A stretch of 63,740 nucleotides of DNA, the filler included, from Octopus bimaculoides (lineage: Eukaryota): NCBI RefSeq assembly GCF_001194135.2. It is 11 parts of 11 records of this genome, joined end to end, with 100 filler letters (N's around TTAATTAATTAA, not from the genome) between each part and the next. Parts side by side here need not be neighbours in the genome. Positions count along the whole stretch, not along the records: positions 12,912 to 25,594 come from NC_069006.1; positions 25,695 to 31,232 come from NW_026348398.1; positions 31,333 to 48,485 come from NC_068984.1; positions 48,586 to 55,672 come from NW_026418270.1; positions 55,773 to 58,257 come from NC_068994.1; positions 58,358 to 60,621 come from NW_026304631.1; positions 60,722 to 62,533 come from NC_068988.1; 4 more parts are not named here. The stretch is one strand, 5' to 3'. Below, in pieces: positions 22,619-61,135 of the stretch (positions are counted from its first letter, which is position 1; each line of letters opens with the position of its first letter). A program made the translations under genes and the position numbers. The notes under the pieces were generated by a model. The model did no database searches, was not told where the DNA came from, and saw nothing but the letters and a program-made list of their open reading frames with translations.

Positions 22619-22658
22619 TGCTTTCTGATGAAAGACTCTCGGAGCGAAACGTCAGACA
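22619..22658 (+). ncRNA. Hammerhead-like motif in the GPCR leader
   Basis: CTGATGA (22625-22631)...GAAAC GTC (22646-22653); stems I and II imperfect. Confidence 0.35.
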
Positions 22659-22794
22659 ATTCTTCTCGAAACGTTTTTATAAGTTTTCCCTTATTCTAAC
22701 TTCAGTCGTCTTCGTTGTTTGTTTGGGTTTTTTTTTTTCATATTTTGCTCTGTTTTTGTGGTTGTTGCTTTTGTTGCCCTCCTTAACGACGACG

Positions 22795-23877
22795 ATGTCG
22801 ATGAATTCGTCTTTCTTTCCGTCGAAGGAGCAGAACGAATCAACCACGAATTGGATTGAAGAAATTAACATGACGATGGTGATGTACAATGCCCCGGCTC
22901 TTACTTACAGCTTCCTCACGCTCATAATCGGTGGAATAGGCAACGGATTGATAGCATACGTATACGGCCGGAGCATGAAGAAGAAAACAACGCCTATGAA
23001 CTACTTTATAATGATATTAAGTCTGCTTAACCTAGTCACTTGCAGTACAGTCATTCCCTTGATGATATTGTACGATTTTATGCCAGTCCTTTTCGTATCA
23101 GACGTAGCTTGTAAAATACTACGGTATATTTACAATTTAACGATGCTGGCATCCAGTTTCACATTGGTGGCCATAGCTGTTGACCGCTATCGGCGAATTT
23201 GTCGCCCGACTTCATCCCAGTTGAACGTGAAGCAAGTTAAGATTACTAGCGTCGTATTAGTAACAATGGCGGCTGCTTTATGTGCGCCGGTGATCGTCAT
23301 AGCCGGAACTCAAACCGAACATTTATATTTCAATCAAATTAATCACACATTTTGCAATACTCAAGAGGATTACGAAAACACTATCTACCCGAATTTATAC
23401 TCCTCGTATCTCTTCATCATTCTTATCACAGCTATTATCATCACTATCGTTTGCTATACAAAAATATTATGCAATATCCGACGCAGTATGGCTCCTCGCA
23501 GACGGTCTTTTGAGAAACATAGAAACAGGATTTCGATAAAGCCACCAAGTAAACCAAATATTAAAAAAGTCTTCTTAATTACATTATTGTTCATATTCAG
23601 CTTCGTGCCGTGTGTTCTGGTCATAATAATTTTCATGGTTACCCAGATTACAGACGATAACTTCCATCCAGTCGTCAACAGCTTTTTGAATATAAGCAGA
23701 CGATCTTATCTGTTGAGTTGCTTGCTAAACCCTCTCATTATTTGGTACTGTAACCTCAATTTTCGCGCCGAAGTCAAATTCCTGTGCACTTTCTGCCATT
23801 GTTCTCGTCACTCGACAAACGATTTAGCAAATTCTTCTTTTTCTAATCCTCTTGAACTGGTCACCGGAGAAAGTTAA
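22795..23877 (+). CDS. Rhodopsin-like (class A) GPCR, single coding exon, 360 aa; orphan, neuropeptide-receptor-like
   Basis: First ATG in the 22504-23877 open frame is at 22795. Seven hydrophobic segments; TM1 GIGNGLI; TM3 C (VACK) and VDRYRRICRP; ECL2 Cys; TM5 CY; TM6 FIFSFVP; TM7 LLNPL; helix 8 NFRAEV; N-terminal sequons NSS, NES, NMT. Ligand family cannot be assigned from sequence alone. Confidence 0.95.
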   Translation: MSMNSSFFPSKEQNESTTNWIEEINMTMVMYNAPALTYSFLTLIIGGIGNGLIAYVYGRSMKKKTTPMNYFIMILSLLNLVTCSTVIPLMILYDFMPVLFVSDVACKILRYIYNLTMLASSFTLVAIAVDRYRRICRPTSSQLNVKQVKITSVVLVTMAAALCAPVIVIAGTQTEHLYFNQINHTFCNTQEDYENTIYPNLYSSYLFIILITAIIITIVCYTKILCNIRRSMAPRRRSFEKHRNRISIKPPSKPNIKKVFLITLLFIFSFVPCVLVIIIFMVTQITDDNFHPVVNSFLNISRRSYLLSCLLNPLIIWYCNLNFRAEVKFLCTFCHCSRHSTNDLANSSFSNPLELVTGES

Positions 23878-23935
23878 TGAGTGGCGACCTAAATGCGACG
23901 CGCTCGTTACATCACTCGAAGAAACAGCCAGGCAG

Positions 23936-24175
23936 ATGACTATCATCATCGTCCTCAATGTCATCGTTATCATCATCACCATCATCGTCGTCGTCGTCAT
24001 CACCACCACCACCACCATCATTATCATCATCATCATATCATCGTCGTCGTCGTCATTATCATTATCATCATCACCACCACCATCATCGTCATCATCATCT
24101 ACATCATCATCGCCATCAGCAGCAGCAGCACCACCACCACTCCCACTTGACCCCTCCCTCACCACCACCATCCGC
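23936..24175. repeat. Compound (ATC)/(GTC)/(ACC)/(AGC)n array in the presumed GPCR 3' UTR
   Basis: Direct inspection; starts about 60 nt after the stop codon. Confidence 0.9.
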
Positions 24176-24510
24176 CGTCTTAACTGATCCTGTCGTAAGC
24201 AATTATGGATTTGGTACCCCGTAAGCTGCCTCCGACGTTTGTCAACAGTTTCTTAGGGATCAGTGACCTCCAGATTAGTGGTGGGGGGGGTTCCTCGACT
24301 GACCCTACTTGGAGGCTCTCCTGTATCAGGAGGACTTCATCACAAATAATTCCACACATTTTATTTACCTTGTACCGTAGACTTTATTTTTATCTTATTT
24401 CCCCTCCCTCTCCCTCCCTCTCCCTTTGTCCTTTATGTAACCCCCCAAACACACACACATAAATCGTACACTAGCTTTGTGATATCTTTATTCGATTCCC
24501 CCCTATGGCA

Positions 24511-24560
24511 AATAAAAAAAAAGTCACTTTGTTGTTGTTGTTGTTATTGTTGTTGTTGTT
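24511..24560 (+). terminator. Candidate polyadenylation signal of the GPCR transcript
   Basis: AATAAA at 24511-24516 followed by a GT/T-rich tract (ctttgttgttgttg...), about 630 nt after the stop codon. Confidence 0.5.
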
Positions 24561-24579
24561 GGGGGGGGGCTAGTTGATG

Positions 24580-25108
24580 GTATGAGCGTTGACGGTCCAG
24601 AATTGAATCCAAGCATTGACGAGTACAGTCTGAGTAGTCTCTTCCGCAGGACCTTCGGGTCGAAGATCTTGGACACGATGCCAATTCAGTGCTGCAAGGG
24701 ATCATTGCCTGTTCGAGACAAGCTCTTCGGGTATGGAAGCGCTAACAGCCGAACCTGTCCGAGATGCTCGCAGTGAGGACGAAACCGTCCTGCACGCAAT
24801 AATTCAGTGTCCGTGCATCAGAGAGTTGTGGGATGATTGCATGGAACAGCTGGCTGTTGTCGCGTGTAAGAAGAATTCAGTCGTCTGCCGAGTGTTTTGT
24901 GAAGATCGACTTTACATCTCATCCTTTCGGTGTCGACAACACTTTTTTTCTGGAAATTAGGGGTAGCTTATCCTTGTTCAGGCTATATTGTTAGCATTAT
25001 CCTGCGTTTGAGAATTTAAAAATCACTTCTTTAACTTTCTAAGACATCTCAACGCTTCTAAGAGCAAACTTGGTTTGTTTGTTTACGTTTATCGTAATTT
25101 GAATTTAA

Positions 25109-25186
<78 letters not shown>
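24580..25186 (+). mobile_element. Tx1/L1-type LINE 3' fragment with C-terminal CCHC finger and (TAA)n tail
   Basis: GSLPVRDKL...TCPRC...ETVLHAIIQCPCIRELWD (zf-RVT-like), followed by a 3' UTR and (TAA)n at 25111-25186. Confidence 0.8.
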
Positions 25187-25187
<1 letters not shown>

Positions 25188-25543
25188 CTTCTACCTTTAA
25201 TACTACACTTGTAACAGTAACAACTACACTAACCACATCAACTACAACCACAACAATAGTGATGACAATAACACGTGTGTTTCTTGCGGGTGCAGAAGGG
25301 GTGGCAGTTGTTCTAGGTTTGTTTGTTTAATCAGTAAGAGAGATAAACCACAGCTACGTCTCACACCACCGCCGCCAGGTGGCGCCCTTCATCATCTATC
25401 CCGATGTTACAAGAAAATATCTGATTCATTCAACACGAACAACTTCAAGATGATTCACACCTTGATTGGTTTGCTTTTATTCTTGTTTAATTTTATGTTA
25501 TTTTTTTTTAATGTTTTATATTTTTTGCTTCAAATTATACGTG

Positions 25544-25594
<51 letters not shown>

Positions 25595-25699
25595 NNNNNN
25601 NNNNNNNNNNNNNNNNNNNNNNNNNNNNNNNNNNNNNNTTAATTAATTAANNNNNNNNNNNNNNNNNNNNNNNNNNNNNNNNNNNNNNNNNNNNATATT

Positions 25700-25996
25700 T
25701 ATTATAGCCTCAGGCTCACCAAACCCTTGTGAGTGGATTTTGTACACAGAAACTGAAACAAGACTGTTATATATATGTATATATTTGTGTGTGTCTCTGT
25801 GTCCCCATGATTGTACCCTCACCATTGCTTGGCAACTGATGTTGCTGTGATTCCTTCCCCATAATTTAGTGGTTCAGCAAAAGGCACTGATAGAATAAGT
25901 TCTAGGCTTGCAAAAAATAAATCCTGAGGTTGACTCATTCGATTAAAGCCAGTGCTCCATCATGGCCGCAGTCACATAACTGAAACAAGTAAAACA
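25700..25996 (+). mobile_element. SINE B copy; its head is lost in the gap
   Basis: tatagcctcagg...ttgtgagtggatttt...catggccgcagtc...tgaaacaagtaaaa. Confidence 0.75.
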
Positions 25997-26060
25997 ATAA
26001 AAAACCATGCCATTTTAATCCCAACCAACGCCAGCTATCTCTGCTAGTGTGTGTATGTAT

Positions 26061-28336
26061 ATCATCATCATCATCGTATAACGTCCGCTTTCCATGCTAG
26101 CATGGGTTGGACGATTTGACTGAGGACTGGCGAACCAGATGGCTACACCAGGCTTCAATCTGATTTGGCAGAGTTTCTACAGCTGGATGCCCTTCCTAAC
26201 GCCAACCACTCCGAGAGTGTAGTGGGTGCTTTTACATGCCACCGGCACAAAGGCCAGTCAGGCGGTACTGGCAATGGCCACGCTCAAAATGGTGTATTTT
26301 ATGTGCCACCTGCAGAGGAGCCAGTCCAGCAGCACTGGCAATGATCTCGCTCGAATGTCTTTACACGTGCCAGGAAGGCGACGCTGGCACAGGTGCCATA
26401 ACGATTTCGCTTTTGCTTGTCCCAACAGGTCTTCGCAAGCGGAGTTCAGTGTCCAATGAAGGAAGGTACGCATAAGTGGGCTGGCTACACCCCTGGCAGA
26501 GGCCTTGGATTTAGGTCTCACTTGTTCNNNNNNNNNNNNNNNNNNNNNNNNNNNNNNNNNNNNNNNNNNNNNNNNNNNNNNNNNNNNNNNNNNNNNNNNN
26601 NNNNNNNNNNNNNNNNNNNNNNNNNNNNNNNNNNNNNNNNNNNNNNNNNNNNNNNNNNNNNNNNNNNNNNNNNNNNNNNNNNNNNNNNNNNNNNNNNNNN
26701 NNNNNNNNNNNNNNNNNNNNNNNNNNNNNNNNNNNNNNNNNNNNNNNNNNNNNNNNNNNNNNNNNNNNNNNNNNNNNNNNNNNNNNNNNNNNNNNNNNNN
26801 NNNNNNNNNNNNNNNNNNNNNNNNNNNNNNNNNNNNNNNNNNNNNNNNNNNNNNNNNNNNNNNNNNNNNNNNNNNNNNNNNNNNNNNNNNNNNNNNNNNN
26901 NNNNNNNNNNNNNNNNNNNNNNNNNNNNNNNNNNNNNNNNNNNNNNNNNNNNNNNNNNNNNNNNNNNNNNNNNNNNNNNNNNNNNNNNNNNNNNNNNNNN
27001 NNNNNNNNNNNNNNNNNNNNNNNNNNNNNNNNNNNNNNNNNNNNNNNNNNNNNNNNNNNNNNNNNNNNNNNNNNNNNNNNNNNNNNNNNNNNNNNNNNNN
27101 NNNNNNNNNNNNNNNNNNNNNNNNNNNNNNNNNNNNNNNNNNNNNNNNNNNNNNNNNNNNNNNNNNNNNNNNNNNNNNNNNNNNNNNNNNNNNNNNNNNN
27201 NNNNNNNNNNNNNNNNNNNNNNNNNNNNNNNNNNNNNNNNNNNNNNNNNNNNNNNNNNNNNNNNNNNNNNNNNNNNNNNNNNNNNNNNNNNGAGTTTCGT
27301 GTCCAATGAAGGAGATGATGTTAGCAAGGGTGCTAGTCGTCAAATTTAGTTTGATTTTGATTTCACTTGCCTCAACAGGTCTTCGCAAGCGGAGTTCAGT
27401 GTCCAATGAAGGAAGGTACGCATAAGTGGGCTGGCTACACCCCTGGCAGAGGCCTTGGATTTAGGTCTCACTTGTTCTGCCTGGTCTTCTCACGCACAAC
27501 ATATTTCCAAAGGTTTTGGTCACAAGTCATCGCCTCAGTGAGGCCCAATGTTCGGAGGTCGTGCCTCCCCATCTCAGCCCAGGTCTTCCTGGGCCTACCT
27601 CTTCCACAGATTTCCTCAACCGCTAGGCTGTGGCACTTTTTCACACAGCTATCCTCATCCATTCTCGCCACATGACTGTACCAGCGCAATCGTCTCTCTT
27701 GCACACTACAACTGATGCTTCTTAGGTTCAACTTTTCTCTCAAAGTACTTACACTCTGTCTAGTATGCACACTAACATTACACATCCATCGGAGCATACT
27801 GGCTTCATTCCTTGTGAGCCTACGCATGTCCTCAGCAGTCACGGCCCATGTTTCACTGCCATGAAGCATGNNNNNNNNNNNNNNNNNNNNNNNNNNNNNN
27901 NNNNNNNNNNNNNNNNNNNNNNNNNNNNNNNNNNNNNNNNNNNNNNNNNNNNNNNNNNNNNNNNNNNNNNNNNNNNNNNNNNNNNNNTGAGTGAGAGGCC
28001 CCTTGACACTAGCAGAGGTAAGAGCTCTCTGAACTTTGCCCAGGCTATTCTTATTCTAGCAGCTACACTTTCAGTGCACCCACCCCCACTACTAACTTGG
28101 TCACCTAGATAGCGGAAGCTATCAACTAAATCTAGTTTTTCTTCCTGGAATGTGGCCAAAGTTCTTTTCTGCACATTTTCAGTGTTTATTGCTCCTGAAC
28201 ATCTGCCACATACAAAAACTAACTTCCTAGTTAACCTTCCTTTGATATTGCTGCACCTCTTATGTGTCCATAGCTTGCACTGGGTACATCTTATAGAGTT
28301 TCTACCTATGCCTTTTCTACAGATCGAGCAGGGCCA
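26061..28336 (-). mobile_element. RTE-clade LINE of the same family as 10416-12742; 5' truncated, with complete 3' end and (GAT)n tail
   Basis: Minus-strand DSFRYLGDQVSSGGG, MLHGSETWAVTAEDMRR and GRGRPRKTW; 3' motif ttggcgttaggaagggcatccagctgtagaaac; (ATC)n at 26061-26075 on the + strand. Confidence 0.95.
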
Positions 28337-28394
28337 TATATGTAAGTATATATAAGTGTGTGTGTGTGTGTGTGTGTTTACATTCTGTCACATA

Positions 28395-28475
28395 TGTTTT
28401 TCCATGCTAGCATGGGTTAGAAGAATATATTATTGAGGTAAGTTTTACGACTGGATGTCCTTCCTGTCACTAAAC
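28395..28475 (-). mobile_element. Degenerate RTE 3' end fragment
   Basis: Shares ttccatgctagcatgggtt and ctggatg(c/t)ccttcct with about 26090-26200. Confidence 0.6.
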
Positions 28476-28599
28476 CATACCTGCTTTTATTCCACAAGTC
28501 TTTCAAGAATGATTTCTTAAGGGAAATTACATCACCACTTGAAGTTCAACAATTTTCAGAGAAGTGCTTAAGTAAACCAACAAACACACACATATATAA

Positions 28600-28755
28600 A
28601 GAGCTTGTTTTCAGTTCCCATCAAGCAAATCCATTCACAAAGCTTCGGTTAACCCAGGGCTATAGTAGAAGATACTTGCCCAGGATGTTGCACAGCAAAG
28701 CTGAACCCAAAGTCACATGGTTGAGAAGTGATCCTTTTAGCCACACCTGTGCCTA
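28600..28755 (-). mobile_element. Degenerate SINE B 5' half
   Basis: caaatccattcacaaagc...ggctatagtagaagatacttgccc. Confidence 0.7.
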
Positions 28756-29319
28756 TGTAAATGAACACACACTTGTAAGACTCCAACATAGTCTGATTTT
28801 CTTATTGTATTTTTACAATTTAACAAATACTTTCATATTTTATAACTAGCTTCAGGTACATGTTTTTATAATGGCAGTAATAAACAGCTAATGTGTTTAA
28901 CAATTGTCAACCATAGCGAAATGTCTGAATTTTTCTTTTAAATACCTTCTGATAAGCTCTAGTAGACTAAAACTAATAAAAGCTATTTTAGCCAATAAGC
29001 TTAGAGATCACAGCTTAGGTAATATACAAACATAGTTGACTTCAGTAATGTTTATTCATGGAAACATTTAAGCCAACTAGAGTCACTGATAGAAGATTCA
29101 TCTATAATCAGATGTTGAGAAATATCTAATACTACAAACAGTAGTGAAATCCTACCTTAAATATTTTTGAATGAAATTTAATTCAAATCAAAATTACTGT
29201 CAATATTACTACAGCATTTGAATAAAATGAAATCAATATTAATATTATTATTCAAATTATTGCTCATTCAGAACAAATTTAAACTTATATTAATCTATAC
29301 ACAATTTTACAAACCCCAA

Positions 29320-30382: not shown

Positions 30383-30592
30383 CTCTTTTTACTCTTTTAC
30401 TTGTTTCAGTCTTTTGACTGTGGCCATGCTGGAGCACCGCCTTTAGTCGAGCAAATCGACCCCAGGACTTATTCTTTGGAAGCCTAGTACTTATTCTATT
30501 GGTCTCTTTTGCCGAACCGCTAAGTTACGGGGACATAAACACACCAGCATCGGTTGTCAAGCGATGTTGGGGGGACAAACACAGACATACAA

Positions 30593-30639
<47 letters not shown>

Positions 30640-40400: not shown

Positions 40401-43400
40401 TAATATACACTTATATCAAGAAAGATTTAATTTAGTGATAGGTTTTAATTAACTGAGAGATATAACATTCACAACTAATAATTATCTTTCATACAAAAGT
40501 CTGAAAGATCACATATTTTCAAAATATATTATTTTTCTCCAATTGCAATTAAATATCTTATAATAATATATTTTAATATAGATAATATTCAGTAATGGTT
40601 AAGCAGAAGTAACATTCATATTGTTTGATGAAAGATTTAGTTTCGTCAAATATATTATGAAACTATTTTAATCTGTGTTGCTATTTGCAATTGTTTGTTG
40701 CATTCTGTCAAGGTTTTCAAATAGCATAAAACTTGAGAAAATCCAACAGACAATTAAGTTAAAGTTATTAAATGCTTAAAGGAACAGAGTATATTTGCAA
40801 GCTATTTTCAGATTTTGAGTATTTAAATTGATATAAGAAATTAAGATTCATATAAAGAAATGAAATATATTTTGGTCGAGAATAAAATCGAAAATTTATA
40901 TTAGTACATTAAAAATTGAATTCAAACAACGAAAATAACACACACATACAAATAATTGAAGCAAAGAAATTTGATGTGATTCACCCAATATATAGCTTCA
41001 ATGGGTAATGCTAGCATTTATTAATATCTCTGTGTTGAAGATTAACAAATATTTTATGTGATCATTCAGCCAACTCCAATCACTTCCTCTCGTAAAAAAT
41101 TGTTGTTCGTCAAATTTTGTACAGCTGGCTTCCTTATTGCTGCTTAGACAGATTCAGTTTCATTTCTTTGATTTGAACTATGTTACCGCCCGTAAAGGAA
41201 TAAGACTTAAATAAAATACTAAGGAAGCATACATTTAAAAAATGTGTGTTTCTGAAATGTAAATTGTTAAACTTGGTTCGTATTACTATGTAACGGTAAT
41301 GCCATGAACTGTCCACCTGTTTTTGAAACAGACAGAAACGTGTCATATATCCTAACGTGTCATATATCCTACACACTGTATTAGAATCCGTAATCCCACA
41401 AAAAAAAAACCGACAGGTAACTCTTGGATGCATTTGTCGGAGTCCACTACGTTTGGCATCTGTTCGGAGCAGGTCACCTTCTTCAGACACATTCGAGGCA
41501 TCATTTATAGTAACATATCAGATGTTATTTGCCGTTACAAATGATTTCGGTGAGCACCCAATTATCCCCAGAAGATACAAAAATATATTATGATAGCTGA
41601 TATCATACTAAATGGTATTTTGGTTGTATCATTTAAAGTGTTAGAAATCCAGCCTGGAAATACGAGTCTATGGGATCTTTTTTGCTTTCTATGTACTATA
41701 ATATAAATAAATTTACTGCAGGCATGCATCCTACAGGCCGGCGAAATTTGAATCACCCCTAAAGTTTATATTACTTAAGAGATGCATAACCTAATTTGTG
41801 TTTATACACACATACATACGCATACACATACACACACATACGCACACACATACACACATACGCGCACACACAACAAGAGTATTTCGTAGTATCTAAACTT
41901 GCACATGTACTTGTATATCTATTGTAATGTGTATGTGTATGTCGGTCATCATACGCACAAAGACACACACGCACGCTCACATATACACACACATATGCAG
42001 AGGCATATATACAGCCTAAACTCAGTCGGTGACGAATTGTAGTTTGACTGTCTAATACATAAGCATTTAGATCTTTCCCTTTTTTGGTAAATTAGAAAGT
42101 CAATATGCAACTATACAAAATTCCGTATTGCAAAGTCACTCGCTTGTATAGAACTCACTTGTATGGAACTATCTTAATGGAACTACAAAAATATGTAGCG
42201 GCTCTTCTCACGTTAAATTAGTGTACAGATCACTAATTTCATTAGTGGAAGTTTCATTTTTTTTCTATTTTCTTTGATTCTGCTTCGTGCTTCTATCAGT
42301 TAGTGTGTTATGATAAAATCAAACAGATTTCCAGACCTGCGTCATAAATTATAAATGATGATATAATGAAATTATTTCAAATAGGACACTCAACTAGAAG
42401 AGTGGAATTAAATAATATATATGCTTCTATTGGAATTAATTCGGTAATATTGAAAATCAGATGCTATGTGCAGCTAACTGTAAAAAAAGAAATCAAATAT
42501 TTTATTTTGATTATTTAGTCTTATTCGTGAGTCGATGAATTTTTAATGCAGACGAATGACAGACTAAAAATGTTAATGCATAAATGGTTATAATCGCTCA
42601 TATATCATTTGGCACACATATATTTGACGTCCTCTGTAATGCAAATCACCAGTTATCATATATTTCATATAAAATCATATTACGTATTTATACAATGAAA
42701 TATAAAAGAGGAGTTCAGGTCTTACTGATTGCACAGATTCGTATACCACAAATATTAAAGTACAAACAGAACGACAGTTGTTCATAGCTCGAAGGTGGCC
42801 ATCATTTTCACGAAGTGTAACAGTTGTGGATTTCCAATCCTAAATTTAAGCTTATAAAAAAAATCTAACTCATATATGCGTATGGGCCGATTCTTAAAGG
42901 TCAGCTAAGTACAATCGCATGTGTAACGAACCACGAAGAAAAAAATCAAAACTAGAAAAAAAGTAATATGCCAACCCCTTTAAATCGGTAACTACTTTAA
43001 CTGAACCAGAATCTCCATCCCTCTGCATCTACACATTGAAAGTAGTTTGCCAACGTTTCTTCAATAACAACATACGTCGATAAACACAGTGGCAACTACT
43101 GACTTCAGGTCATGACAGATTAAGAGGATTTGAATTTACGGAGATAATATTTACATATCGTCTGATGAAACACAACTAGATCTCATAATGCAGTGAAACG
43201 TTTGCATAATCCAGTACCTGCAGTCATAGAGAAATACGTTGCGAAGAAACAATTGTAGTGATTGAAAATAACTGTGCAACTATACGCCTTGTTGACTCCA
43301 AATTCTTTAGATTATATGTGCGTGTGTGTGCGCATGTGTGTGTATGTATTAAAGTAATTCATAAACATTACAAGGAAACAGTGTACAGTTTCTCACGAGT

Positions 43401-46717: not shown

Positions 46718-47162
46718 TGTACTCTTCTGTGATGGTAAGATCAAGAAAAACGAACTCCATTTGGTGAGTAAGAAATATTATTTAAAAGACACAATACATG
46801 ATTTCATGAGCTACAAATAATTTCATATGTTGAAAAATACATCAAACGTATTCTTCAGGCACAACATACATATCATAACAAACTAAAAATTCAATACAAG
46901 AAAAGAGGTGAAAACGTGGAATTTGTAAAAACGGAAAACGAAGAAAGGAAAACAAAAAAGGAAAAAAAAAACTAGATGTTTTCCTAGACCTGAAGTCCTC
47001 CTTGTATAATCCTTTCCAGAAGCCAAATGAGAAACTTGCATATATACATAAACAATCTGGTCAACCTCGTCTATTTTTTAAAAACTTGATAGCTAATATT
47101 AGTGACAAGGTGTCTAATCTCACTTCCTCTAAACAGTCGCTTCTAATAATAATCAGAATTAT

Positions 47163-47282
47163 AATAATCGAATGGATGAAAGGCAAAGTCAATCTCGACG
47201 GAATTTGAACTCAGAACGTAAAGACAGACGAAATACCGCTATGCCTTTCGCCCGACGTGCTAACATTTCTGCCAGCTCATCA
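47163..47282 (-). mobile_element. SINE A copy inserted in the PLE
   Basis: ggatgaaaggcaaagtcaatctcgacggaatttgaactcagaacgtaaagac. Confidence 0.85.
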
Positions 47283-47761
47283 TCTAATAACCCCAGTAAT
47301 ATCAATCAGAAAATAATAGCAGACCTAAATGTAGGACAAGGAAAATTATTTGGTTCCCCCCTTCCTTTTCCATTAATATAAAAACTAACATAGGTAAAAA
47401 ATTCTAACCTCTTCTAGACAGTAACTCACAGATCCATATAAATATTTAATAGTCGCCCTGTGAAATTATCATATAGCAGCTGCCACAATATCAAGTGTAT
47501 CATTACACGAGTTCGATACAAAGAGCCTAAATCTAGTTGTAATTTTTAGGACCTAGGCTCCTGTCCATTTGACCAATGGTGTATGATTAAATCTGTCATA
47601 TATAAAACAGAAGTTATTCCAACAGTAGATGACACTACAAGAGATAAGATGACCTATATTGGATTTTGTAAAGAAGAATGTCAAACACATAGACTCCATC
47701 CAACATAAGAACAAAAGCAAAGCTACTAAATTGACTAGCCACATACAGAGTTTAAAATATA

Positions 47762-47962
47762 ACGCAGAATCGTTAGCACGACAGGCGAAATGCTCAACAG
47801 TATTTCATCTGTCTTTATGCTCTGAGTTCAATATTCCGCCGAGGTCGATTCTGTGTTTCATTCTTTCAGGGTCGATACATTAAGTACCAGTTGCGTGGTG
47901 GGGTCGATCTAATTGACTGGCCCCCTCCCCAAAACTTTCGAGCCTTGTGCCAAGAGTAGCAA
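47762..47962 (+). mobile_element. SINE A copy inserted in the PLE
   Basis: gcagaatcgttagcacg...gagttcaatattccgccgaggtcg...ggggtcgatctaattgact. Confidence 0.85.
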
Positions 47963-48378
47963 ATGATGCTACATGTGATTAAGGGGGAATTAATGGAGAC
48001 ATCTACACCTTATGTTAATGAATCAAATAAATGCAAGCTATGTTTAGCTGAAAGAACACAGATCATTTTCAGATCTAAGATCCCTAACTCGTTATTAAAC
48101 TCTAGGTATGAAATATTTTGCAGTCATAAACATTTGTCTAATTACATTTTGAAGAAATGGCATATTCGGCCTATTCCTGATTAAGTTATTGAAATACTTC
48201 CAGCCTTAAATCTACAGTCTTAGGAGCTTTATTTTTTTACAGCTTGTACATTTTACATTTTATTGTTCGTTTCTTTTTTTTCGTTTTCTTTTTTCTAACC
48301 TTTCCCTTTTTCTATATGCTTCTTTTCAACTTTCGCGATTCTTCTCTGACTCAATTGTTAGTTCGTTATAATATGTGG

Positions 48379-48439
48379 TTTGTGCCTGATGAATATTTTC
48401 GAGATATTTCGCAATATAAGAAACTATTAGCAGCTCAGA
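48379..48439 (+). ncRNA. Decayed type I hammerhead-like motif in a PLE tail
   Basis: tttgtgc CTGATGA atatt...aatat aa GAAA ct att ag c a gctcaga. Confidence 0.45.
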
Positions 48440-48585
48440 AAACATGTATTGTGTCTATTAAGTAGAAATAATATATATATATATANNNNNNNNNNNNNNN
48501 NNNNNNNNNNNNNNNNNNNNNNNNNNNNNTTAATTAATTAANNNNNNNNNNNNNNNNNNNNNNNNNNNNNNNNNNNNNNNNNNNN

Positions 48586-49606: not shown

Positions 49607-49650
49607 TACAAAGATACGTTTCGTCGATTCTTCGACTCATCAGGTGTGTA
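49607..49650 (-). ncRNA. Hammerhead-like motif with perfect core and stem II
   Basis: Minus strand CTGATGA GTCGA agaa TCGAC GAAAC GTA; stem I only partly paired. Confidence 0.55.
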
Positions 49651-50461: not shown

Positions 50462-50624
50462 ATTGACCGTTATTATGATTGACCGTTGACTGAACACTAT
50501 TCAATTTTTTTTCTCCGTGTTTTTCTCCTTGTCTCCGTATTCTTTCTGTTGAAGAGCGTAGCTCGAAACGTCAAAGACTTTCCGTATTCCCGAGCGTCAT
50601 ACTAATATATACTTTTGTTATTTA
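50462..50624 (+). mobile_element. Short repeat resembling a PLE pseudo-LTR, with a hammerhead-like motif
   Basis: Shares gaagagcgta(g)gctcgaaacgt(c/t)aaagacttt...ttcccgagcgt...actaata with 61015-61135. Confidence 0.6.

Positions 50625-52947: not shown

Positions 52948-53012
<65 letters not shown>
52728..53012. repeat. (CTAT)/(CTGT)/(CTGC)n compound array
   Basis: Direct inspection. Confidence 0.95.
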
Positions 53013-53014
<2 letters not shown>

Positions 53015-53143
53015 CTAATCTAACTTTCTGTCTCTTCGCTCTCTCTCACACATACTTCCTCTTTCTTTCTTTCTCTCCTATATTTCCTTTTCTTATACAC
53101 AGCCTCTCTCATTTACATCTTTTCCCTCCCTTTCACTATCTGA

Positions 53144-53181
<38 letters not shown>

Positions 53182-54105
53182 TCAATAGACTCTCATTTTA
53201 ACTATTGCCTTCTTTTTCTATTCTTCTCTCCTAACTTTCTTCCATCAATCTTCATATTTTTAACTTTACCTCCTATTCTCACAAACACATTTCTTCTTTC
53301 CTATTCTCTCGCTGTTCTATCCCCTTCCCCCCTCTCTCTCTATCTTTATAGCTCTTCACAAGTCTTACTTTCCATTATTCATCTGGTTGTCTCCCCTTCT
53401 TTTGTTTCCTTCCTCAAGCACTCTCTTGTGCACTACTCGCGCTTTCTCACTGTTCGTATTTATGATAAAATAATTCACTCTACATATTTACCACACACTC
53501 TCTCCTATTCTTCGATTTCCTTTCATTTCTATTGCATATCCTCTCTTTCTTTCCGTCACCCATACTCTCTTCTATGTTTCGTTCTTTTAATCATTAGACT
53601 ACATATTTTAGTCATTAGACTATATATATATATAAGTTCAAAAAGACAATAACAAAAGAACAAAAGAACAACAAAGTGAGGACGTGATATGGATAGTGTT
53701 ATTGGACGCTCAGGAAAGGAAAAAGAGACTAGCAGTATAGCTATCTCCACTCACTTTTTTCCTTGATGGAAAAAAAAAACAAAATATTTTCACTAAAAGA
53801 TGACACAAATACCGCCACCCCCACACACACCGTGCACGTGGATATATGTATATATGCATATGGTAAAAAGACGAGGGGAAACAATAACATACAAGGTGTA
53901 TTGGTTTAATGCTCTAGAAAAATGGAATAAATCTTTAACATTTTGAGCATATGCTCTTCTGCAGATAAGACAGATAAGGAGAGAAAATAATATGTATCTG
54001 CATAAAGCGGTCAAGGTATATTTAAATGATTGGAAGAGGAAGTAGTTGGCTTGTTGTGTGGATGCCAAGAGGGACAACATTCACCTGGCATATGTGTGTT
54101 TGTGT

Positions 54106-54332
54106 GGAGGCGCGTGTACATGTGGTTAGGGTGTTGGACTCTTCGTCGTAAGATTGTGGTTTCGATCCCTGAACCGAGTGAGGCGTTGTGTTCTTGAGCA
54201 AAACACTTCATTTCACGTCGCTGCAGTCCACTCAGCTGGCAAAAATGAGTAACCATGAGACGGACCGGCGTTCCGTCCAAGTGGGGAATATCTACGCTGT
54301 GGAGACCGGGAAACCGGCCCTCATGAGTCGGC
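54106..54332 (+). mobile_element. tRNA-derived SINE family D
   Basis: A-box-like gtggttagggtg and B-box ggtttcgatccc; body gctgcagtccactcagctg also present as a fragment at about 21215-21298. Confidence 0.75.
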
Positions 54333-54415
54333 ATTACTTGAGAACGAAACTTCATCTTTTGTTTTTATGTTATAAGTGTGTGTCGGCAAGCGCGCTTATT
54401 TGTAAGAAGCTAAAG

Positions 54416-54460
<45 letters not shown>

Positions 54461-54470
54461 NNNNNNNNNN

Positions 54471-54514
<44 letters not shown>

Positions 54515-54622
54515 ACGAATGCCATTTGCAAGATATTTGATGGGAGGAACTGGCAAAAAGCTAGAAACTTCGGATAACAGATTATGTGCACCCGTTGATG
54601 CTTGTTTATTTATGCTTGCAGA

Positions 54623-54688
<66 letters not shown>

Positions 54689-55622
54689 GATATACATATA
54701 TGCACACATAATCCTATATGCGATTATATATACATACGTACGTACATACATACACATACATACATACACATACATACATATATATATATATATTGGTTTA
54801 TTGTTGTACCACTATCCNNNNNNNNNNNNNNNNNNNNNNNNNNNNNNNNNNNNNNNNNNNNNNNNNNNNNNNNNNNNNNNNNNNNNNNNNNNNNNNNNNN
54901 NNNATATATATATATATATATATATATATTTAGTTATAATGTTTGCATAAATGCATACATAGATGCTTACATACTCATACATACGCGCATACTCACATAA
55001 ATACATGCGTACATACATGCATACATACATACATACATACATACATACATACGTATATACACATATACATACATGCATATATACATACGTACATACACAT
55101 ATAATACATGCATACATACATACATAAAACCGTGCAATTCTTCTTACAGATTTGGGTATGCATTGCCTTCTGCTTGTGTTCATGAATTTCGCTTTGCATG
55201 GGAGGAAATTAGATTTGCCTTCTCCTAGGTGTGGTATATCTTTTAGGGAATCAAGCACTAAACCAATTTTCACACTCGCACCCTCTATGCACTTCCTGAG
55301 TCTTGTACCCAGGCCTACTACTCGCCAATATTTGTATGTCATTGAATACGAAACCGCAAAATCATACACTCATACAGGCAGACACATACAGACAGACGCA
55401 TAGAGACACATACGAATACACCACGTATATACAGATGCGTGTATACACGTATACAGAGACTCATACGCTTGCTGCCTTATATGCATTCTCATAAAATATG
55501 CATGTATATACGAGCATGCAAAACGAAAAATGCAGATGCGTAGTCAAAACATATTCAGGCATATATAAATATATAACTGCATGCATAATATACACATACA
55601 ATATGCAAGTACATATACGTGC

Positions 55623-55672
<50 letters not shown>

Positions 55673-57589
55673 NNNNNNNNNNNNNNNNNNNNNNNNNNNN
55701 NNNNNNNNNNNNNNNNTTAATTAATTAANNNNNNNNNNNNNNNNNNNNNNNNNNNNNNNNNNNNNNNNNNNNTCTGCCGGAGTCCACCAGTCTCAGACAG
55801 CCAGCAAGTGGGCCACTCACACGACACTGGAGCAGTTTTTCCAATTTCGGTGGTGGTATCACTCTCGTCCTTAACGCTCTCACCTCAAAACCATGAGTGG
55901 TTTGCTTTACCAGATTGACAGGGACTGATCTTCCTTTCACCGAAAGCTTCATAGAGCACAAGTTTAGTTGACAAATAATTGACGCCAGGTAGTCCAGACC
56001 CAAGATACTCTAATCCTCAATCTCCACTACATAGACAGGAAGCACGACCTCTTGTCCAGCAACATCGAGCAGGCTATTAACCGGCCCTCTCAACTCAGTA
56101 CAGTGACCGGTAACACCACATAACTGCTGCGATGACTCTGGCAAGTCTAGACGCTGCAACACTTCGGGTTTCAGAAACGTTTGTCCCGAAGCCGAATCAA
56201 TCACAGGGAAACATTTCCGGTGGTTAATCCTTCCATCCACTTGTACACTGTCAATCACAGACTTTGTACGTCGTCTCGGAGGTGGGATCTCCTNNNNNNN
56301 NNNNNNNNNNNNNNNNNNNNNNNNNNNNNNNNNNNNNNNNNNNNNNNNNNNNNNNNNNNNNNNNNNNNNNNNNNNNNNNNCTTGCTCGGCAGTCGCAGCT
56401 CATATGTCATTTTTTTTACCACATATCCTGCACTCCTTCTTAAAAGTAGACTTGGCTTTATCATTCTGTTTTGCTTTCTCTTCAGGCTGTAACAATCTTG
56501 CCGCTTGCGTCCAGATTGCCTACAGTGCCAGCAACNNNNNNNNNNCTGTAACAATCTTGCCGCTTGCGTCCAGATTGCCTACAGTGCCAGCAACATATAC
56601 CAATTACCTCTTCATTCTTCTCACACCTTTCCTTAAACATTCCAGCTTCACAGATTTTCCCTCTCTTTGCTTGGAATCCAGCCCACCCGGATATTTCTGG
56701 TGCTATACCTGACATACGACTCAAATTCCAGAGCTCTAGCCAGTGCCTCTCGCATAGTACTTGGCTGTATCTGCTTCACTTCCATTTTGAGATTCGCACT
56801 GGCCAGAGGGTCAATGAACTGTCCTTTCAAAAGAGCCAACAGGTCAGGGGTTGCTGTGAAGTAGGCTTTAAGCACCGTGCTCTGCAGGTCCTGGGCAAAC
56901 TGATGAAGGGTTTCTCCTCTACCCCTTACACGGGTACGAAAGCGTGCCCTGTACATTTCCTTCTCGTACATAGTACCGTATTTTCTCAGCAGAACTTCTA
57001 CCAAAGCCGAATAACGACTCCTGTTCTCAACTGAAAACTGGCTCAGCACCTCTACTGCAGGACCCTTCAAACTAGTAGCAAGCTGAACTGCTCTCTGCCT
57101 CTCGTCCCATTCATTCTGGTCAGGCAGCATCTCAAACTGGATTCGGTAGGCCTCCCAAGACACTTTGCCATCGAATTTCCCAATGGGGACTCCACAGTCA
57201 CTGTGATCTTCATGGGATCCGGGTCTAAATATTAAAGCATCATGATGTGACTCAGTAACAACTACTTGTTGCTCAGCAGCCTGAGATTCGGTAGCACACA
57301 ACCTTTCCACGGACTCTAATCTCTTGTAAAACCGGTCTATTTGCTGCTTGTACCATACAACATTACCGCTCACATCAAGTAACTCTACCTTAAACGGTTA
57401 CAGCTGAAGTTGAAGTTGTGTGTGCCGCATTCTCAGCTCCTCCTTGAGTTCATTTAAAATATCATGTTGCTCTTTTCACATCCTCACAATTGTAGCCAGA
57501 GACAACACTTCTAAACTTGCTTGACTTTTTGTAAGTACTCCTTCCAAATCCATAGCGAATAATTGACTCGCTGCATCAATGAAAATACA

Positions 57590-57602
57590 ACTCCTGACAC
57601 CA
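57590..57602 (-). promoter_or_regulatory. Primer binding site TGGTGTCAGGAGT, complementary to a tRNA-Leu 3' end
   Basis: The + strand reads actcctgacacca, matching the 3' end of eukaryotic tRNA-Leu(CAG) as I recall it. Confidence 0.8.
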
Positions 57603-57604
57603 GT

Positions 57605-57840
57605 TGTTACGTCGCATGCAGCCTTCTGATACTACAAAGGGCTCCACACAACGATCTGTTGTCTGATGGCTCGGAAGATTGCGCGGGCAATGCTCAACGA
57701 ATGAACATGCTTTGAGTAGAAGAAACAGTAGCCNNNNNNNNNNGATGTCAGAAGAGTCGCGAATAACAAGGAAAAACCGTCGAGTAAAATCAAAATAAAT
57801 GAACTTTTAATTAAGAGACGAATAAAACATTTATGTAACA
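57605..57840 (-). repeat. 5' LTR of the Gypsy element (about 236 bp)
   Basis: Termini tgttac...gtaaca (TG...CA); ends 2 nt from the PBS; ATTAAA on the minus strand near 57806. Confidence 0.75.
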
Positions 57841-58357
57841 AATGGACAGTTTTTTAGTGAGTTATCTTTTAAGGTGTTCTTTCATTTACCTCTGAAGTCT
57901 TACGCGTTTTTTATGTTGTGTAGCTCACATTGATTGCCGAAACCAAATGCATCGTCGCATATCTCCTTTCAGAAGACTTCGAACAATCTCTTCGCACTCA
58001 TTTCCGTTCAGCTTCGCTTTCTTACGTCAACTAACCCTCGGAGCCAACCGTACGGCTCGGCTCATGTTCAATAGCCTTTTAGTCCGCCACGCACCGAAAA
58101 TCGAATCTATTCAATCTCAGTCACAGATTTTNNNNNNNNNNAATTAATTTCTTTTAACTAAACAGTTTGAAACTACGGATACTTGGTGAATGGGCTACGT
58201 AGAACACGGTTTACTCTTAACGTTTTTGACAAAATTTGTATTTTAGAAGTTATTTCGNNNNNNNNNNNNNNNNNNNNNNNNNNNNNNNNNNNNNNNNNNN
58301 NTTAATTAATTAANNNNNNNNNNNNNNNNNNNNNNNNNNNNNNNNNNNNNNNNNNNN

Positions 58358-58384
<27 letters not shown>

Positions 58385-58391
<7 letters not shown>

Positions 58392-58626
58392 CCTTTCTAC
58401 TATAGGCACAAGGCCTGAAATTTTGGGGGAGGGGACTAGTCGATAACATCAAACCCAGTGTTTCACTGGTACTTAATTTATCGACCCCGAAAGGATGAAA
58501 AGCCAAGATGACCTCAGCAGAATTTGAACTCAGACCGTAGCGACTAACTATTCTGCCAGTTCGCTGCCTATTCTTTTATAGACACACCACCATCGGATGT
58601 CAAGTGATGGTGGGAGACAAACACAG

Positions 58627-58680
<54 letters not shown>

Positions 58681-59065
58681 CGGACTTCTTTCAGTTTCCA
58701 TCTACCAAATCCACTCACAAGGCTTTGGTCGGCCCGAGGCTATAGTAGAAGACACTTGCCCAAGGTGCCATGCAGTGGGAATGAACCTGGAATCATGTGG
58801 CTGGTAAACAAGCTACCTACCACACAGTCACTCCTGTGCCTTAATAATAATAATTCTTTCTTACTATAAACACAAAGTCTGAAATTTATGGGAAGCGGGC
58901 AAGTTGATTACATCAACCCTAGCCTTGAATTGGTACTTATTTTATTGACCACAAAAGGATGAAAGACAAAGTCATCCTCGGCAGATTTTGAATTCAGAAT
59001 GTAAAGATAGACAAAATGCCACGAAGCATTTTGCCTGACACATTAATGATTCTACTTAGCCTTAA
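58385..59065 (-). mobile_element. SINE cluster: SINE A (58385-58570), SINE B (58580-58841), SINE A (58848-59065)
   Basis: Family motifs as in the other copies, with (TAA)n runs at the junctions. Confidence 0.85.
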
Positions 59066-59086
59066 TAATAACAATTCTTTCTACTA

Positions 59087-60330
59087 GTGATTAACTGGCA
59101 CCGACGTTTCGCTGGCATTTCAAAAGTGTTGCATGAAAGTTACCAACATGTGGTGAAAAAATATCCCAGTTTCAAACAAACATTTCCTCAGCCGCCCATT
59201 GTAGCCTTTCGACGGAATAAGAACATAAAAGAATTATTGACCTCTATATCTGACTCCAAGAAAACGAACATTGGAGTATCTACACGCTGTACCTTAAAGA
59301 ACAGCCGCAAGAGAGGTAAGCCCTGTTCATTGTGCAACAACATGAGTGAAGTGAATACCATCAAAAATCATAATAGAAATGTTATGATTTATACAGAAGG
59401 GGGAACCTGCAAAGATTCCCATTTAGTGTACGGTNNNNNNNNNNNNNNNNNNNNNNNNNNNNNNNNNNNNNNNNNNNNNNNNNNNNNNNNNNNNNNNNNN
59501 NNNNNNNNNNNNNNNNNNNNNNNNNNNNNNNNNNNNNNNNNNNNNNNNNNNNNNNNNNNNNNNNNNNNNNNNNNNNNNNNNNNNNNNNNNNNNNNNNNNN
59601 NNNNNNNNNNNNNNNNNNNNNNNNNNNNNNNNNNNNNNNNNNNNNNNNNNNNNNNNNNNNNNNNNNNNNNNNNNNNNNNNNNNNNNNNNNNNNNNNNNNN
59701 NNNNNNNNNNNNNNNNNNNNNNNNNNNNNNNNNNNNNNNNNNNNNNNNNNNNNNNNNNNNNNNNNNNNNNNNNNNNNNNNNNNNNNNNNNNNNNNNNNNN
59801 NNNNNNNNNNNNNNNNNNNNNNNNNNNNNNNNNNNNNNNNNNNNNNNNNNNNNNNNNNNNNNNNNNNNNNNNNNNNNNNNNNNNNNNNNNNNNNNNNNNN
59901 NNNNNNNNNNNNNNNNNNNNNNNNNNNNNNNNNNNNNNNNNNNNNNNNNNNNNNNNNNNNNNNNNNNNNNNNNNNNNNNNNNNNNNNATCAAATTTATAC
60001 AAAACTGTTTGATTGAATATTCTTCTTTCTCTCTTTTTCTTTTCTTTTTCTGTCGTCTTCCTTTTTCTTTCTTTCTTTCTGCTTATTAAAAAAACTGACA
60101 AAAGCTGATGATGTCATTCTATCAACGTATGGTCGCTGATTACTCACGTTCATAGTTTACGTTTGGTTTCTGAAATTTTGAATTTTCAATCACCTTTTGG
60201 TTTGAACTTGAGAAAGACAGACGTTCTGTCGAAATGTTGTTCAAAAAATAAAACATCTAAAATCGCGCTCTTCGTTTTGACTATTTACCTTCGTGAAGAG
60301 TTACGTCAATCCTTTTTTTAATAACAATAA
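59087..60330 (+). mobile_element. Penelope-like element: pre-GIY-YIG segment, N gap, then pseudo-LTR-like tail
   Basis: FPQPPIVAFRRNKNIKELL, a Cys cluster (CSLC) and CKDSHLVY at the gap edge; tail after 59988 contains a hammerhead-like motif. Continuity across the 553-N gap is inferred. Confidence 0.75.
60201..60245 (+). ncRNA. Minimal type I hammerhead-ribozyme-like motif
   Basis: Stem I tttgaac/gttcaaa (7 bp); core UUGAGAA plus A; stem II gacag/ctgtc (5 bp); GAAA-UG-UU. Confidence 0.65.
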
Positions 60331-60721
60331 TAATAATAATAATAATAATAATTTTGGCATCTGGATGGGTTAAGCCAGTCTTTTGGGAGGAGGGGTCCCT
60401 TTAGCCTTGGTTGGTAACCCCTCTAGACAAGGTGACTCAATTAAAGCACTAAAATTCTCAGGAGTGAAAATGTCAAATGCAAAGATATAAAACAATGAAT
60501 TGAATGAGACTAGCACTAAAATCAGTGTACACGAAGGTAGGCGTGGACTCTTGCAACCTTGGCTAGCATTACAAATGAGTGATGTCAAAATTAAATAATG
60601 ATCTTTTTAAGGCCTCTGTCGNNNNNNNNNNNNNNNNNNNNNNNNNNNNNNNNNNNNNNNNNNNNTTAATTAATTAANNNNNNNNNNNNNNNNNNNNNNN
60701 NNNNNNNNNNNNNNNNNNNNN

Positions 60722-60764
<43 letters not shown>

Positions 60765-60933
60765 CACATATAGACATACACATACATGCATATACAAACA
60801 GACACATACACACACGCGCATGCACAGACACACACACATAATACATGCATACAAACATACATAAATACACACATATATATATATATATACATACATGCAT
60901 ATACACATAAATGTATAGACAGACCGACAGACC

Positions 60934-60987
<54 letters not shown>

Positions 60988-61014
60988 TAGATAGATAGGT
61001 AGATAGATAGATAG

Positions 61015-61135
61015 TTTCTTTCTGTGTTCCTTTCTTTGGAAGAGCGTAGGCTCGAAACGTTAAAGACTTTTTCAATTCCCGAGCGTTAAACTAATACATC
61101 TGTTTGTTTTCTGCACCACCTGTCTTCGTTTTCTT
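61015..61135 (+). mobile_element. Second copy of the short hammerhead-like repeat
   Basis: Homologous to about 50535-50624. Confidence 0.6.

What the first reader, a model, noticed from the sequence alone, without database searches (positions are those of the whole stretch)
22619..61066. Six hammerhead-ribozyme-like motifs of at least four architectures in one 64-kb window
Seen: motifs at 22619 (+), 48379 (+), 49607 (-), 50541 (+), 60201 (+) and 61033 (+) follow core / stem II / GAAA / short or palindromic stem III / UH. Known: Penelope-like elements carry minimal hammerheads in their pseudo-LTRs that can cleave as dimers, and metazoan non-LTR retrozymes use type I hammerheads to make small circular RNAs. 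Inference: this genome may hold a large, unannotated population of PLE-derived ribozymes, including a short non-autonomous family and copies inside host transcripts. This is my best candidate for an undescribed system here.
Basis: partly seen in the sequence, partly recalled or inferred. Interest (0 to 1): 0.75.

Follow-up and report, generated by a model that had tools for sequence, protein, structure and literature searches.

The report
Penelope tails with altered hammerhead core
Four of the six motifs are tail ends of three abundant Penelope-type jumping-gene families, a known arrangement, and two are lone remnants; the commonest family has spread to over 9,000 copies with one normally fixed ribozyme letter changed (A6 to U), which likely slows self-cutting, though cutting is untested.

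Summary
The motifs exist, but the window is a pack of 11 stretches and the six lie on five of them, so there is no cluster. Only M5 (60208) is an intact textbook minimal hammerhead. M2, M4, M5 and M6 are 3' pseudo-LTR ends of three protein-coding Penelope-like element (PLE) families. M1 and M3 are single-copy and lack sound stems. M1 lies in a spliced GPCR 5' UTR. The 'short non-autonomous family' (M4, M6) is the 5'-truncated end of a Neptune/Nematis-type PLE, not a retrozyme. Thousands of such motifs per animal genome are published (PMC4209133). Not in the papers I could read: this lineage carries U at core position 6, and a pattern census finds 9,462 U6 against 1,659 A6 motifs. Across nine U6 subfamilies 0 of 30 structural positions change, against 28 of 110 flanking ones. 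RNA reads are plentiful but show no ends at the cut site. Earlier scan notes report PLE hammerhead ends in this genome and an A6U core in shark-like genomes (unchecked). Verdict: known kind, core variant worth one cleavage assay.

The parts
22622..22656 (+). M1: decayed minimal hammerhead-like motif (core 22625-22631) in the 5' UTR exon of a rhodopsin-family GPCR; single copy, parent family not found
   Evidence: One hit, itself, in the genome. Covered without differences by a 1,956-nt spliced contig (intron 17954-22321). 7tm_1 E 1.5e-35.
46779..46971 (-).
   Evidence: 72% identical over 199 nt to 48275-48464 on the opposite strand.
46912..48181 (+). Broken remnants of a Hydra-type PLE ORF: RT thumb fragment (about 46970-47130) and C-terminal endonuclease fragment (47960-48181), interrupted by other repeats
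   Evidence: Translation. 27 of 52 residues identical, counted by eye, to Hydra-1_Obim as printed in the supplement of PMC8557442. The EN fragment recurs in 5 of 20 M2-family loci, two of which overlap. No Pfam hit for the thumb fragment.
48382..48436 (+). M2: decayed hammerhead in the 3' pseudo-LTR of that element (family form: stem I 4 bp, long AU-rich stem II closed by A-U, 3-4 bp stem III, GUA triplet); this copy has U11.1A and U16.1C
   Evidence: 122 pattern hits, control 0; family form from 20 loci.
49615..49643 (-). M3: perfect core, 5-bp stem II, GAAA-CG-UA, but no stem I; lone relic or chance
   Evidence: The pattern finds only itself and one locus that shares only the 29-nt motif, control 1.
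50463..50624 (+). 5'-truncated 3' end of the youngest U6 subfamily of a Neptune/Nematis-type PLE (runs into an N gap); contains M4 at 50541-50577 (core 50546-50552 with U6, predicted cut after 50572)
   Evidence: Subfamily copies are about 1% from their majority.
53886..53990 (-).
59072..60016 (+). C-terminal part of a PLE ORF (linker and GIY-YIG endonuclease) spanning an N gap, ending just upstream of M5
   Evidence: 91-95% identical to the ORF upstream of the motif in loci L125 and L132. L125 protein hits GIY-YIG above the curated cut-off, E 3.4e-05.
60201..60245 (+). M5: intact minimal hammerhead, U3-A8 core, extra A after A9, stem I 7 bp, stem II 6 bp, self-complementary 4-nt stem III with G-U pairs, predicted cut after 60238; followed by the PLE 'tail' (about 60286-60318) and (TAA)n
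   Evidence: 216 hits, control 0, many as head-to-head pairs. The tail is present in some copies and absent in others.
61014..61166 (+). 5'-truncated 3' end of an older U6 subfamily ending in (TA)n; contains M6 at 61030-61065 (core 61034-61040, private G5U)
   Evidence: 84% identical to family loci over 166 nt.

Best explanation
M2, M4, M5 and M6 are the ribozyme-bearing 3' ends of three protein-coding Penelope-like retrotransposon families, likely left by incomplete reverse transcription into microsatellites, M1 and M3 are likely older remnants of the same kind, and the commonest family (M4, M6) carries a fixed A6U core that is predicted to make it a slow, protein- and dimer-dependent ribozyme. 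Shown: physical linkage of each of the three families to PLE coding sequence; fixed 3' ends, ragged 5' ends, inverted partner copies; U6 fixed through a ladder of subfamilies up to the youngest; all other core and stem positions unchanged between subfamilies. Inferred from published PLE work: the master element's RNA folds two motifs into a dimer through the palindromic stem III and is trimmed with the help of the element's protein. Inferred: solo genomic copies are passengers in host RNA and mostly do not cut. I put the chance that the U6 motif still cuts measurably with partner and protein at about 0.5.
For: Linkage: U6 family to the CxxxxCxxC linker, GIY-YIG and RT (Pfam GIY-YIG E 0.002-0.012 and RVT_1 E 0.0014, below the curated cut-offs); M5 family to GIY-YIG; M2 to a Hydra-type ORF with an inverted pseudo-LTR. 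Truncation gradient: 7,710 hits for a 3' flank motif and 9,462 for the ribozyme, but 303 and 86 for motifs 120 and about 215 nt upstream in single subfamilies. 88 of 97 matched 3' ends abut TA runs; loci overlap, so these are not independent. Census 1,659 A6 and 9,462 U6 against controls of 8 and 10. Among 30 A6 loci of several families, stem II is paired in 73 of 90 cells (shuffled mean 62.6) and stem I in 95 of 120 (83.4), 0 of 2,000 shuffles reaching either; related rows inflate this. Among 129 distinct copies picked by flanking sequence, 106 had a readable motif: position 6 was U 100, C 5, G 1, A 0; position 17 was U 61, C 43, A 2, G 0. U6 copies form one clade apart from the A6 sister families, and stem I pair 4 is C-G in U6 but G-C or A-U in A6 sisters. 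Between nine U6 subfamily majorities only N7, loop II and H17 vary: 0 of 30 constrained sites against 28 of 110 flank sites, Fisher p 6e-4. Literature: low dimer-only activity of PLE minimal hammerheads (PMC4209133); protein-assisted cutting that is dispensable for insertion in vitro (PMC11167929); changes at position 6 give low but detectable activity (PMC3088659 section 8; PMC7151607).
Against: No cleavage was measured. In three RNA runs (2,932, 2,971 and 2,143 reads laid, about 6% of each run) depth peaks across the predicted cut and no place with many starts or ends was listed. Fragmented cDNA libraries and mostly solo copies make this a weak test, and reads ending at the cut were also not found for the active Anolis motif. 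Within the U6 lineage there is no compensatory change: pairing equals the shuffled value because the stems are invariant. Four of the nine subfamily groups have only 4-8 members, and part of the sample was found by ribozyme patterns, which biases towards conservation. No intact full-length ORF was recovered for any family. No parent was found for M1 or M3. Clade names rest on motifs, not on an RT tree.
Confidence: 0.8

Rival explanations
1. The U6 motif no longer cuts. It is kept because the fold or sequence serves another step, such as binding by the element's protein, the start of transcription of the downstream tandem copy, or positioning of reverse transcription.
For: Catalytic mutants did not affect insertion in vitro for the Anolis element (PMC11167929). 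A6 changes lower activity, by orders of magnitude in Mg2+ for A6C (PMC7151607). No cut-site ends in RNA. The invariant stems fit a sequence-specific protein site as well as a ribozyme. This rival concerns only the function of the U6 motif, not its PLE origin.
Against: The positions that vary between subfamilies are exactly those free in a hammerhead (N7 takes all four letters; H17 takes U, C and A and never G in 106 copies; loop II), which a non-catalytic site need not respect. The missing G17 alone is weak evidence.
Confidence: 0.35
2. The U6 motif is neutrally decaying and its apparent conservation comes from short divergence time and pattern-based sampling.
For: Part of the sample was found with patterns that fix the motif; groups are small. 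In RNA reads, 2 of 37 motif positions against about 21 of 146 flank positions varied at 5% or more, which is not a significant difference by itself (counted).
Against: Flank-picked copies give the same picture. 0 of 30 against 28 of 110, p 6e-4, with three CpG sites in the motif unchanged.
Confidence: 0.12
3. M4 and M6 belong to a short non-autonomous retrozyme family that makes small circular RNAs.
For: High copy number and high read counts; a few same-strand pairs 122-196 nt apart; a few back-going joints of 2-8 reads per run.
Against: No fixed unit: 5' ends are ragged and run into the ORF. 3 of 30 loci had a second same-strand copy, and in L004 the two belong to different subfamilies separated by a TA run. 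The hammerhead is minimal, not the canonical type of retrozymes (PMC7229834 passages).
Confidence: 0.06
4. M1 was kept by the host as a regulatory self-cleaving element in the GPCR 5' UTR.
For: It lies in the spliced transcript upstream of the coding region and has a perfect core.
Against: Weak stems; the lowest-energy fold is not the hammerhead fold; no partner copy. The contig runs through it unbroken, and one low-depth 190-nt contig of a second organism carries changes that break one stem I and one stem II pair (6 of its 12 differences were listed, orthology not shown).
Confidence: 0.04

Closest known systems
Minimal type I hammerheads (min-HHR) of metazoan Penelope-like elements (Cervera and de la Pena 2014, PMC4209133; parts 1-2 of 4 of the text and parts 1-2 of 3 of the supplement read)
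   Same: Core with C3-G8 or U3-A8, extra nucleotide after A9, G10.1-C11.1, palindromic 15.2-16.2, 3-7 bp helix I, location in 3' pseudo-LTRs, thousands of solo copies, opposite-strand pairs.
   Different: All 56 representatives in its Fig. S3 have A6 (their descriptor required it), and none is a cephalopod. Here the dominant lineage has U6.
Neptune/Nematis-type EN+ PLEs (Craig et al. 2021, PMC8557442; passages and supplement hits read)
   Same: C-terminal GIY-YIG, CX2-5CxxC linker, microsatellite targeting, 5' truncation.
   Different: No octopus Neptune family or A6U core appeared in the passages and supplement rows seen; RT tree not built.
Hydra-clade PLE Hydra-1_Obim (PMC8557442 supplement)
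   Same: RT thumb 27 of 52 residues identical to the M2 element; (TA)n insertion; hammerhead with A10.1-U11.1 and a short, almost loopless stem III.
   Different: A different family: the hammerhead sequence listed in File S2 differs from the M2 family.
Natural A6C hammerhead of phage Bcep176 (PMC3088659 section 8; PMC7151607 parts 1-2 of 4 read)
   Same: Natural pyrimidine at core position 6 with the rest of the core kept.
   Different: A single phage motif with C, tested active and Mn2+-preferring. Here U, in a stem-III-less retroelement motif, over 9,000 copies, untested.
Poseidon element PAc of Anolis (Frangione et al. 2024, PMC11167929; passages read)
   Same: PLE hammerhead, tail at one end, AT-rich targets, no reads ending at the cut.
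   Different: Cutting was shown there with protein; the passages give no position-6 change.
Metazoan non-LTR retrozymes (PMC7229834 passages; bioRxiv 10.64898/2026.07.22.740005 part 1 of 5 read)
   Same: Type I hammerhead in a dispersed repeat, PLE-related.
   Different: Retrozymes are tandem units with canonical hammerheads and circular RNAs; these are solo, ragged PLE ends with minimal motifs.

Membership tests
PLE minimal hammerhead | Core CUGANGA or U3-A8 variant plus GAAA and UH | tested here: met
   Met by M5, M1, M3 and by the M2 family form; the M2 copy itself has C at 16.1.
PLE minimal hammerhead | A at core position 6 (M4/M6 family) | tested here: not met
   0 of 106 flank-picked copies have A6, 100 have U. 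Filed as a variant, not a plain member.
PLE minimal hammerhead | Extra nucleotide after A9, G10.1-C11.1, self-complementary 15.2-16.2 | tested here: met
   M4, M5, M6. The M2 family differs (A-U closing pair, short stem III).
PLE minimal hammerhead | Helices I and II supported by covariation | tested here: inconclusive
   Met across A6 families and between A6 and U6 sisters; no covariation inside the U6 lineage because the stems are invariant; M3 lacks helix I, M1 weak.
PLE minimal hammerhead | Located in the pseudo-LTR 3' of a PLE ORF | tested here: met
   M2, M4/M6 family, M5; not shown for M1 and M3.
PLE minimal hammerhead | Self-cleavage as dimer or with protein | not testable with these tools
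   No assay; RNA reads showed no cut-site ends.
Neptune/Nematis-type PLE (M4/M6 parent) | C-terminal GIY-YIG preceded by a CX2-5CxxC linker | tested here: met
   Linker C-x4-C-x2-C in L037 and L044, EN in L044, L058, L156; Pfam GIY-YIG hits below cut-off.
Neptune/Nematis-type PLE (M4/M6 parent) | RT phylogeny places it in the clade | not tested
   Only broken RT fragments were in hand (L050).
Hydra-clade PLE (M2 parent) | RT similarity to Hydra elements and (TA)n insertion | tested here: met
   27 of 52 residues by eye; ends in (TA)n. No tree.
Non-LTR retrozyme | Tandem units of fixed length, each with a complete hammerhead | tested here: not met
   3 of 30 loci with a second same-strand copy; ragged 5' ends continuous with an ORF.
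Non-LTR retrozyme | Abundant circular RNA | tested here: inconclusive
   Only a few back-going joints of 2-8 reads per run, which tandem DNA copies also give; no RNase R data.

The most novel reading that the evidence does not exclude
The most successful Penelope lineage of this octopus-like genome runs on a naturally selected A6U hammerhead: a ribozyme that is off as free RNA and is switched on by the element's own protein, a partner copy or Mn2+. If the unchecked scan notes on shark-like genomes hold, the same core change was fixed independently in cephalopod and shark retroelements, each time in a lineage that went on to very high copy number, so damping the ribozyme would be a recurrent, advantageous step in PLE evolution.
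Probability: 0.3. Interest if true: 0.65.

Novelty: new variant of a known kind. Interest (0 to 1): 0.4.

Why it matters
What hammerheads do for Penelope-like elements is open: they are weak in vitro, protein-assisted, and dispensable for insertion in one test-tube system. This genome offers a natural pair: sister lineages with A6 and U6 cores, where the U6 lineage amplified far more and kept every other structural position. One side-by-side assay would show whether these elements need cutting, a damped cut, or only the fold. It also shows that CUGANGA-based searches would miss the larger part of the motifs counted here (9,462 of 11,121 under one pattern). The rest of the finding is ordinary transposon debris.

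Tried and rejected
Rfam scan: the 150 best rows were microRNA-family matches to microsatellites (one was a viral UTR family), all below the gathering score; no hammerhead family among them. Repeat finder swamped by microsatellites. DNA search of the own genome with the M4 stretch returned nothing because common words are skipped; patterns were used instead. M1 and M3 matched none of the fetched loci beyond low-complexity bits. 5' truncation points of 13 copies lacking a readable motif did not gather at the cut site. Minimum-energy folding gave the hammerhead stems for M5 and M4 but cannot show the dimer core. The tandem scan used too narrow a pattern and is not used. Position-17 and loop counts had a parsing error and are replaced. 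The look-up of sequencing runs: no RNA holder listed on record; X1 is treated as RNA only because its contig is spliced at a GT-AG intron. Raw run X21 had almost no reads on the GPCR, so it says nothing on M1. Literature: seven searches listed no paper on an A6U PLE hammerhead or on cephalopod PLE hammerheads beyond PMC8557442. Lunse et al. 2017 (short-stem-III hammerheads) and the Terminon paper (Arkhipova et al. 2017) were not held and may already show position-6 variants; figures and bioRxiv supplements were not visible. PMC6765202 was seen as passages only. Rejected: clustering of the six motifs (packing artefact) and chance origin of M2, M4, M5, M6 (genome counts).

Full report
Setting. 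The window is a pack of 11 stretches of a 2.34-Gb, microsatellite-rich animal genome in 145,327 contigs. It is likely an octopus: this is inferred from size and composition (recalled), from similarity to Hydra-1_Obim and from earlier scan notes; the species was not established. The six motifs (M1 22625, M2 48386, M3 49643 minus, M4 50546, M5 60208, M6 61034; core starts) lie on five stretches, so their co-occurrence is a packing effect.

Observation. All strings are present. A strict descriptor finds only M5 (0.13 expected from 15 local shuffles); relaxed versions find 2 against 1.2 and 3 against 0.53. The window alone therefore gives weak support. The genome gives strong support: the pattern core + extra A + G10.1...C11.1 + GAAACGUH has 1,659 exact hits with A6 (control 8) and 9,462 with U6 (control 10). 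Among 30 A6 loci from several families, both stems are paired more than in any of 2,000 row shuffles, though relatedness inflates this.

M5. Intact: U3-A8 core, extra A, stem I 7 bp, stem II 6 bp. Its family has 216 hits, many in head-to-head pairs. The window ORF fragment 59072-59434 is 91-95% identical to the ORF upstream of the motif in 2 of 20 loci and is also present in one further overlapping pair. That ORF is a GIY-YIG endonuclease whose last residues reappear at 59988-60016. A 30-40-nt tail is present in only some copies, as described for PLEs (PMC8557442). U3-A8 minimal hammerheads are published (PMC4209133).

M2. It lies 3' of broken RT-thumb and endonuclease fragments, with an inverted 72%-identical copy at 46779-46971, the standard PLE layout. 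The thumb matches Hydra-1_Obim at 27 of 52 residues by eye. The family has 122 hits. Against 20 family loci this copy has lost U11.1 and U16.1, so it is predicted inactive.

M4 and M6. These are one lineage. A 26-mer gives 1,699 hits. Copies share a 3' end in TA runs (88 of 97 matches, overlapping loci) and have ragged 5' ends. Walking upstream leads through a C/A-rich UTR into a GIY-YIG domain, a C-x4-C-x2-C linker and RT, and the same holds for M4's own subfamily (L156). Pfam hits are in the expected families but below cut-off. The lineage is thus the truncated end of a Neptune/Nematis-type PLE, not a stand-alone short element. Same-strand neighbours are rare (3 of 30 loci).

The A6U core. 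In the first 100 of 3,850 hits of a pattern leaving positions 6-7 free, position 6 was U 95, C 4, A 1. Of 129 distinct copies picked by flanking sequence, 106 were readable (23 were truncated, gapped or unmatched): U 100, C 5, G 1, A 0; position 17 was U 61, C 43, A 2, G 0; 48 of 106 matched the family at all 30 constrained sites. A midpoint-rooted tree of 100 copies separates U6 from the A6 sister families and shows a ladder of subfamilies ending in near-identical copies (two youngest groups 1% from their majority). Stem I pair 4 is C-G in U6 and G-C or A-U in the sisters. Between nine U6 subfamily majorities only N7, loop II and H17 change: 0 of 30 constrained against 28 of 110 flank sites, p 6e-4. 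Against this: small groups, partly pattern-picked samples, and no compensatory change inside the lineage. No other letter at position 6 reached 5% in three RNA runs or in contigs of a second organism, so U6 is shared with that organism. All 56 published representatives have A6. Natural position-6 change is published for a phage, A6C, with low Mg2+ activity and Mn2+ preference. Seven searches listed nothing on A6U in PLEs, but two key papers were not available. Earlier scan notes describe A6U cores in shark-like genomes; I could not check them.

RNA. The M4 subfamily drew 2,932, 2,971 and 2,143 reads from about 6% of three runs, about equally in both read orientations; depth peaks across the predicted cut and no pile of ends was listed. 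This fits passive transcription of solo copies inside host RNA and is a weak test of cutting. The same negative was reported for an Anolis motif that does cut with protein.

M1 and M3. M1 is single-copy and lies in the 5' UTR of a rhodopsin-family GPCR. A spliced contig runs through it unchanged, and a short contig of a second organism has changes that break two of its pairs. M3 has no stem I and no family. Both are best read as old remnants; M3 could be chance.

Mechanism. Shown: PLE linkage, truncation pattern, fixed U6, constraint pattern. Inferred from the literature: master transcripts fold two motifs into a dimer through the palindromic stem III and are trimmed with protein help; reverse transcription from the 3' end at microsatellite nicks leaves mostly short stubs. 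I commit to a damped, assisted ribozyme for U6 (about even odds that it still cuts), with a non-catalytic conserved fold as the main rival.

Verdict. Known kind; one core variant not found in the papers I could read. Interest 0.4.

Noticed in passing
window 22501-23877 (+), upstream exon ending at 17953: Rhodopsin-family GPCR gene (7tm_1 E 1.5e-35) with an intronless coding region and a 4.4-kb 5' UTR intron (17954-22321) spliced in contig X1.
   Followed up: partly
window 6819-7394 (+): Fragment of a PLE-like reverse transcriptase (RVT_1 E 5.9e-05, below cut-off) from another family; PLE label by motif, recalled.
   Followed up: no
window 43120-43300 (+): Dispersed repeat (81% identical to a site in L099) with a hammerhead-like first core half and a GAAA 25 nt later, but no clear stems.
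   Followed up: partly
L141 (G000:C13:52679526, minus): Canonical-looking type I hammerhead with full stems I, II and III in a roughly 350-nt non-coding stretch between microsatellites; retrozyme-like, unrelated to M3 outside the core.
   Followed up: no
U6 family, flank-picked copies and RNA reads: Recurrent minor variants: C6 in 5 of 106 and A4 in 6 of 106 copies; A4 also in 2-6% of RNA reads. They may be small subfamilies with further core changes.
   Followed up: no
L004 (also L003, L019): A young U6 copy sits directly behind the TA run that ends an older copy; L003 and L019 also hold two copies about 280 nt apart. Such nesting creates mixed dimers by chance.
   Followed up: no
window 10426-12255, 27468-28387 and 56648-57397: Broken RTE-type LINE coding fragments and a gag-like ORF of an LTR element; labels recalled from the translations, not tested.
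   Followed up: no
window 507-862 around the N gap at 735-784: The sequence on the two sides of the gap is partly mirror-duplicated, which may be an assembly artefact.
   Followed up: no
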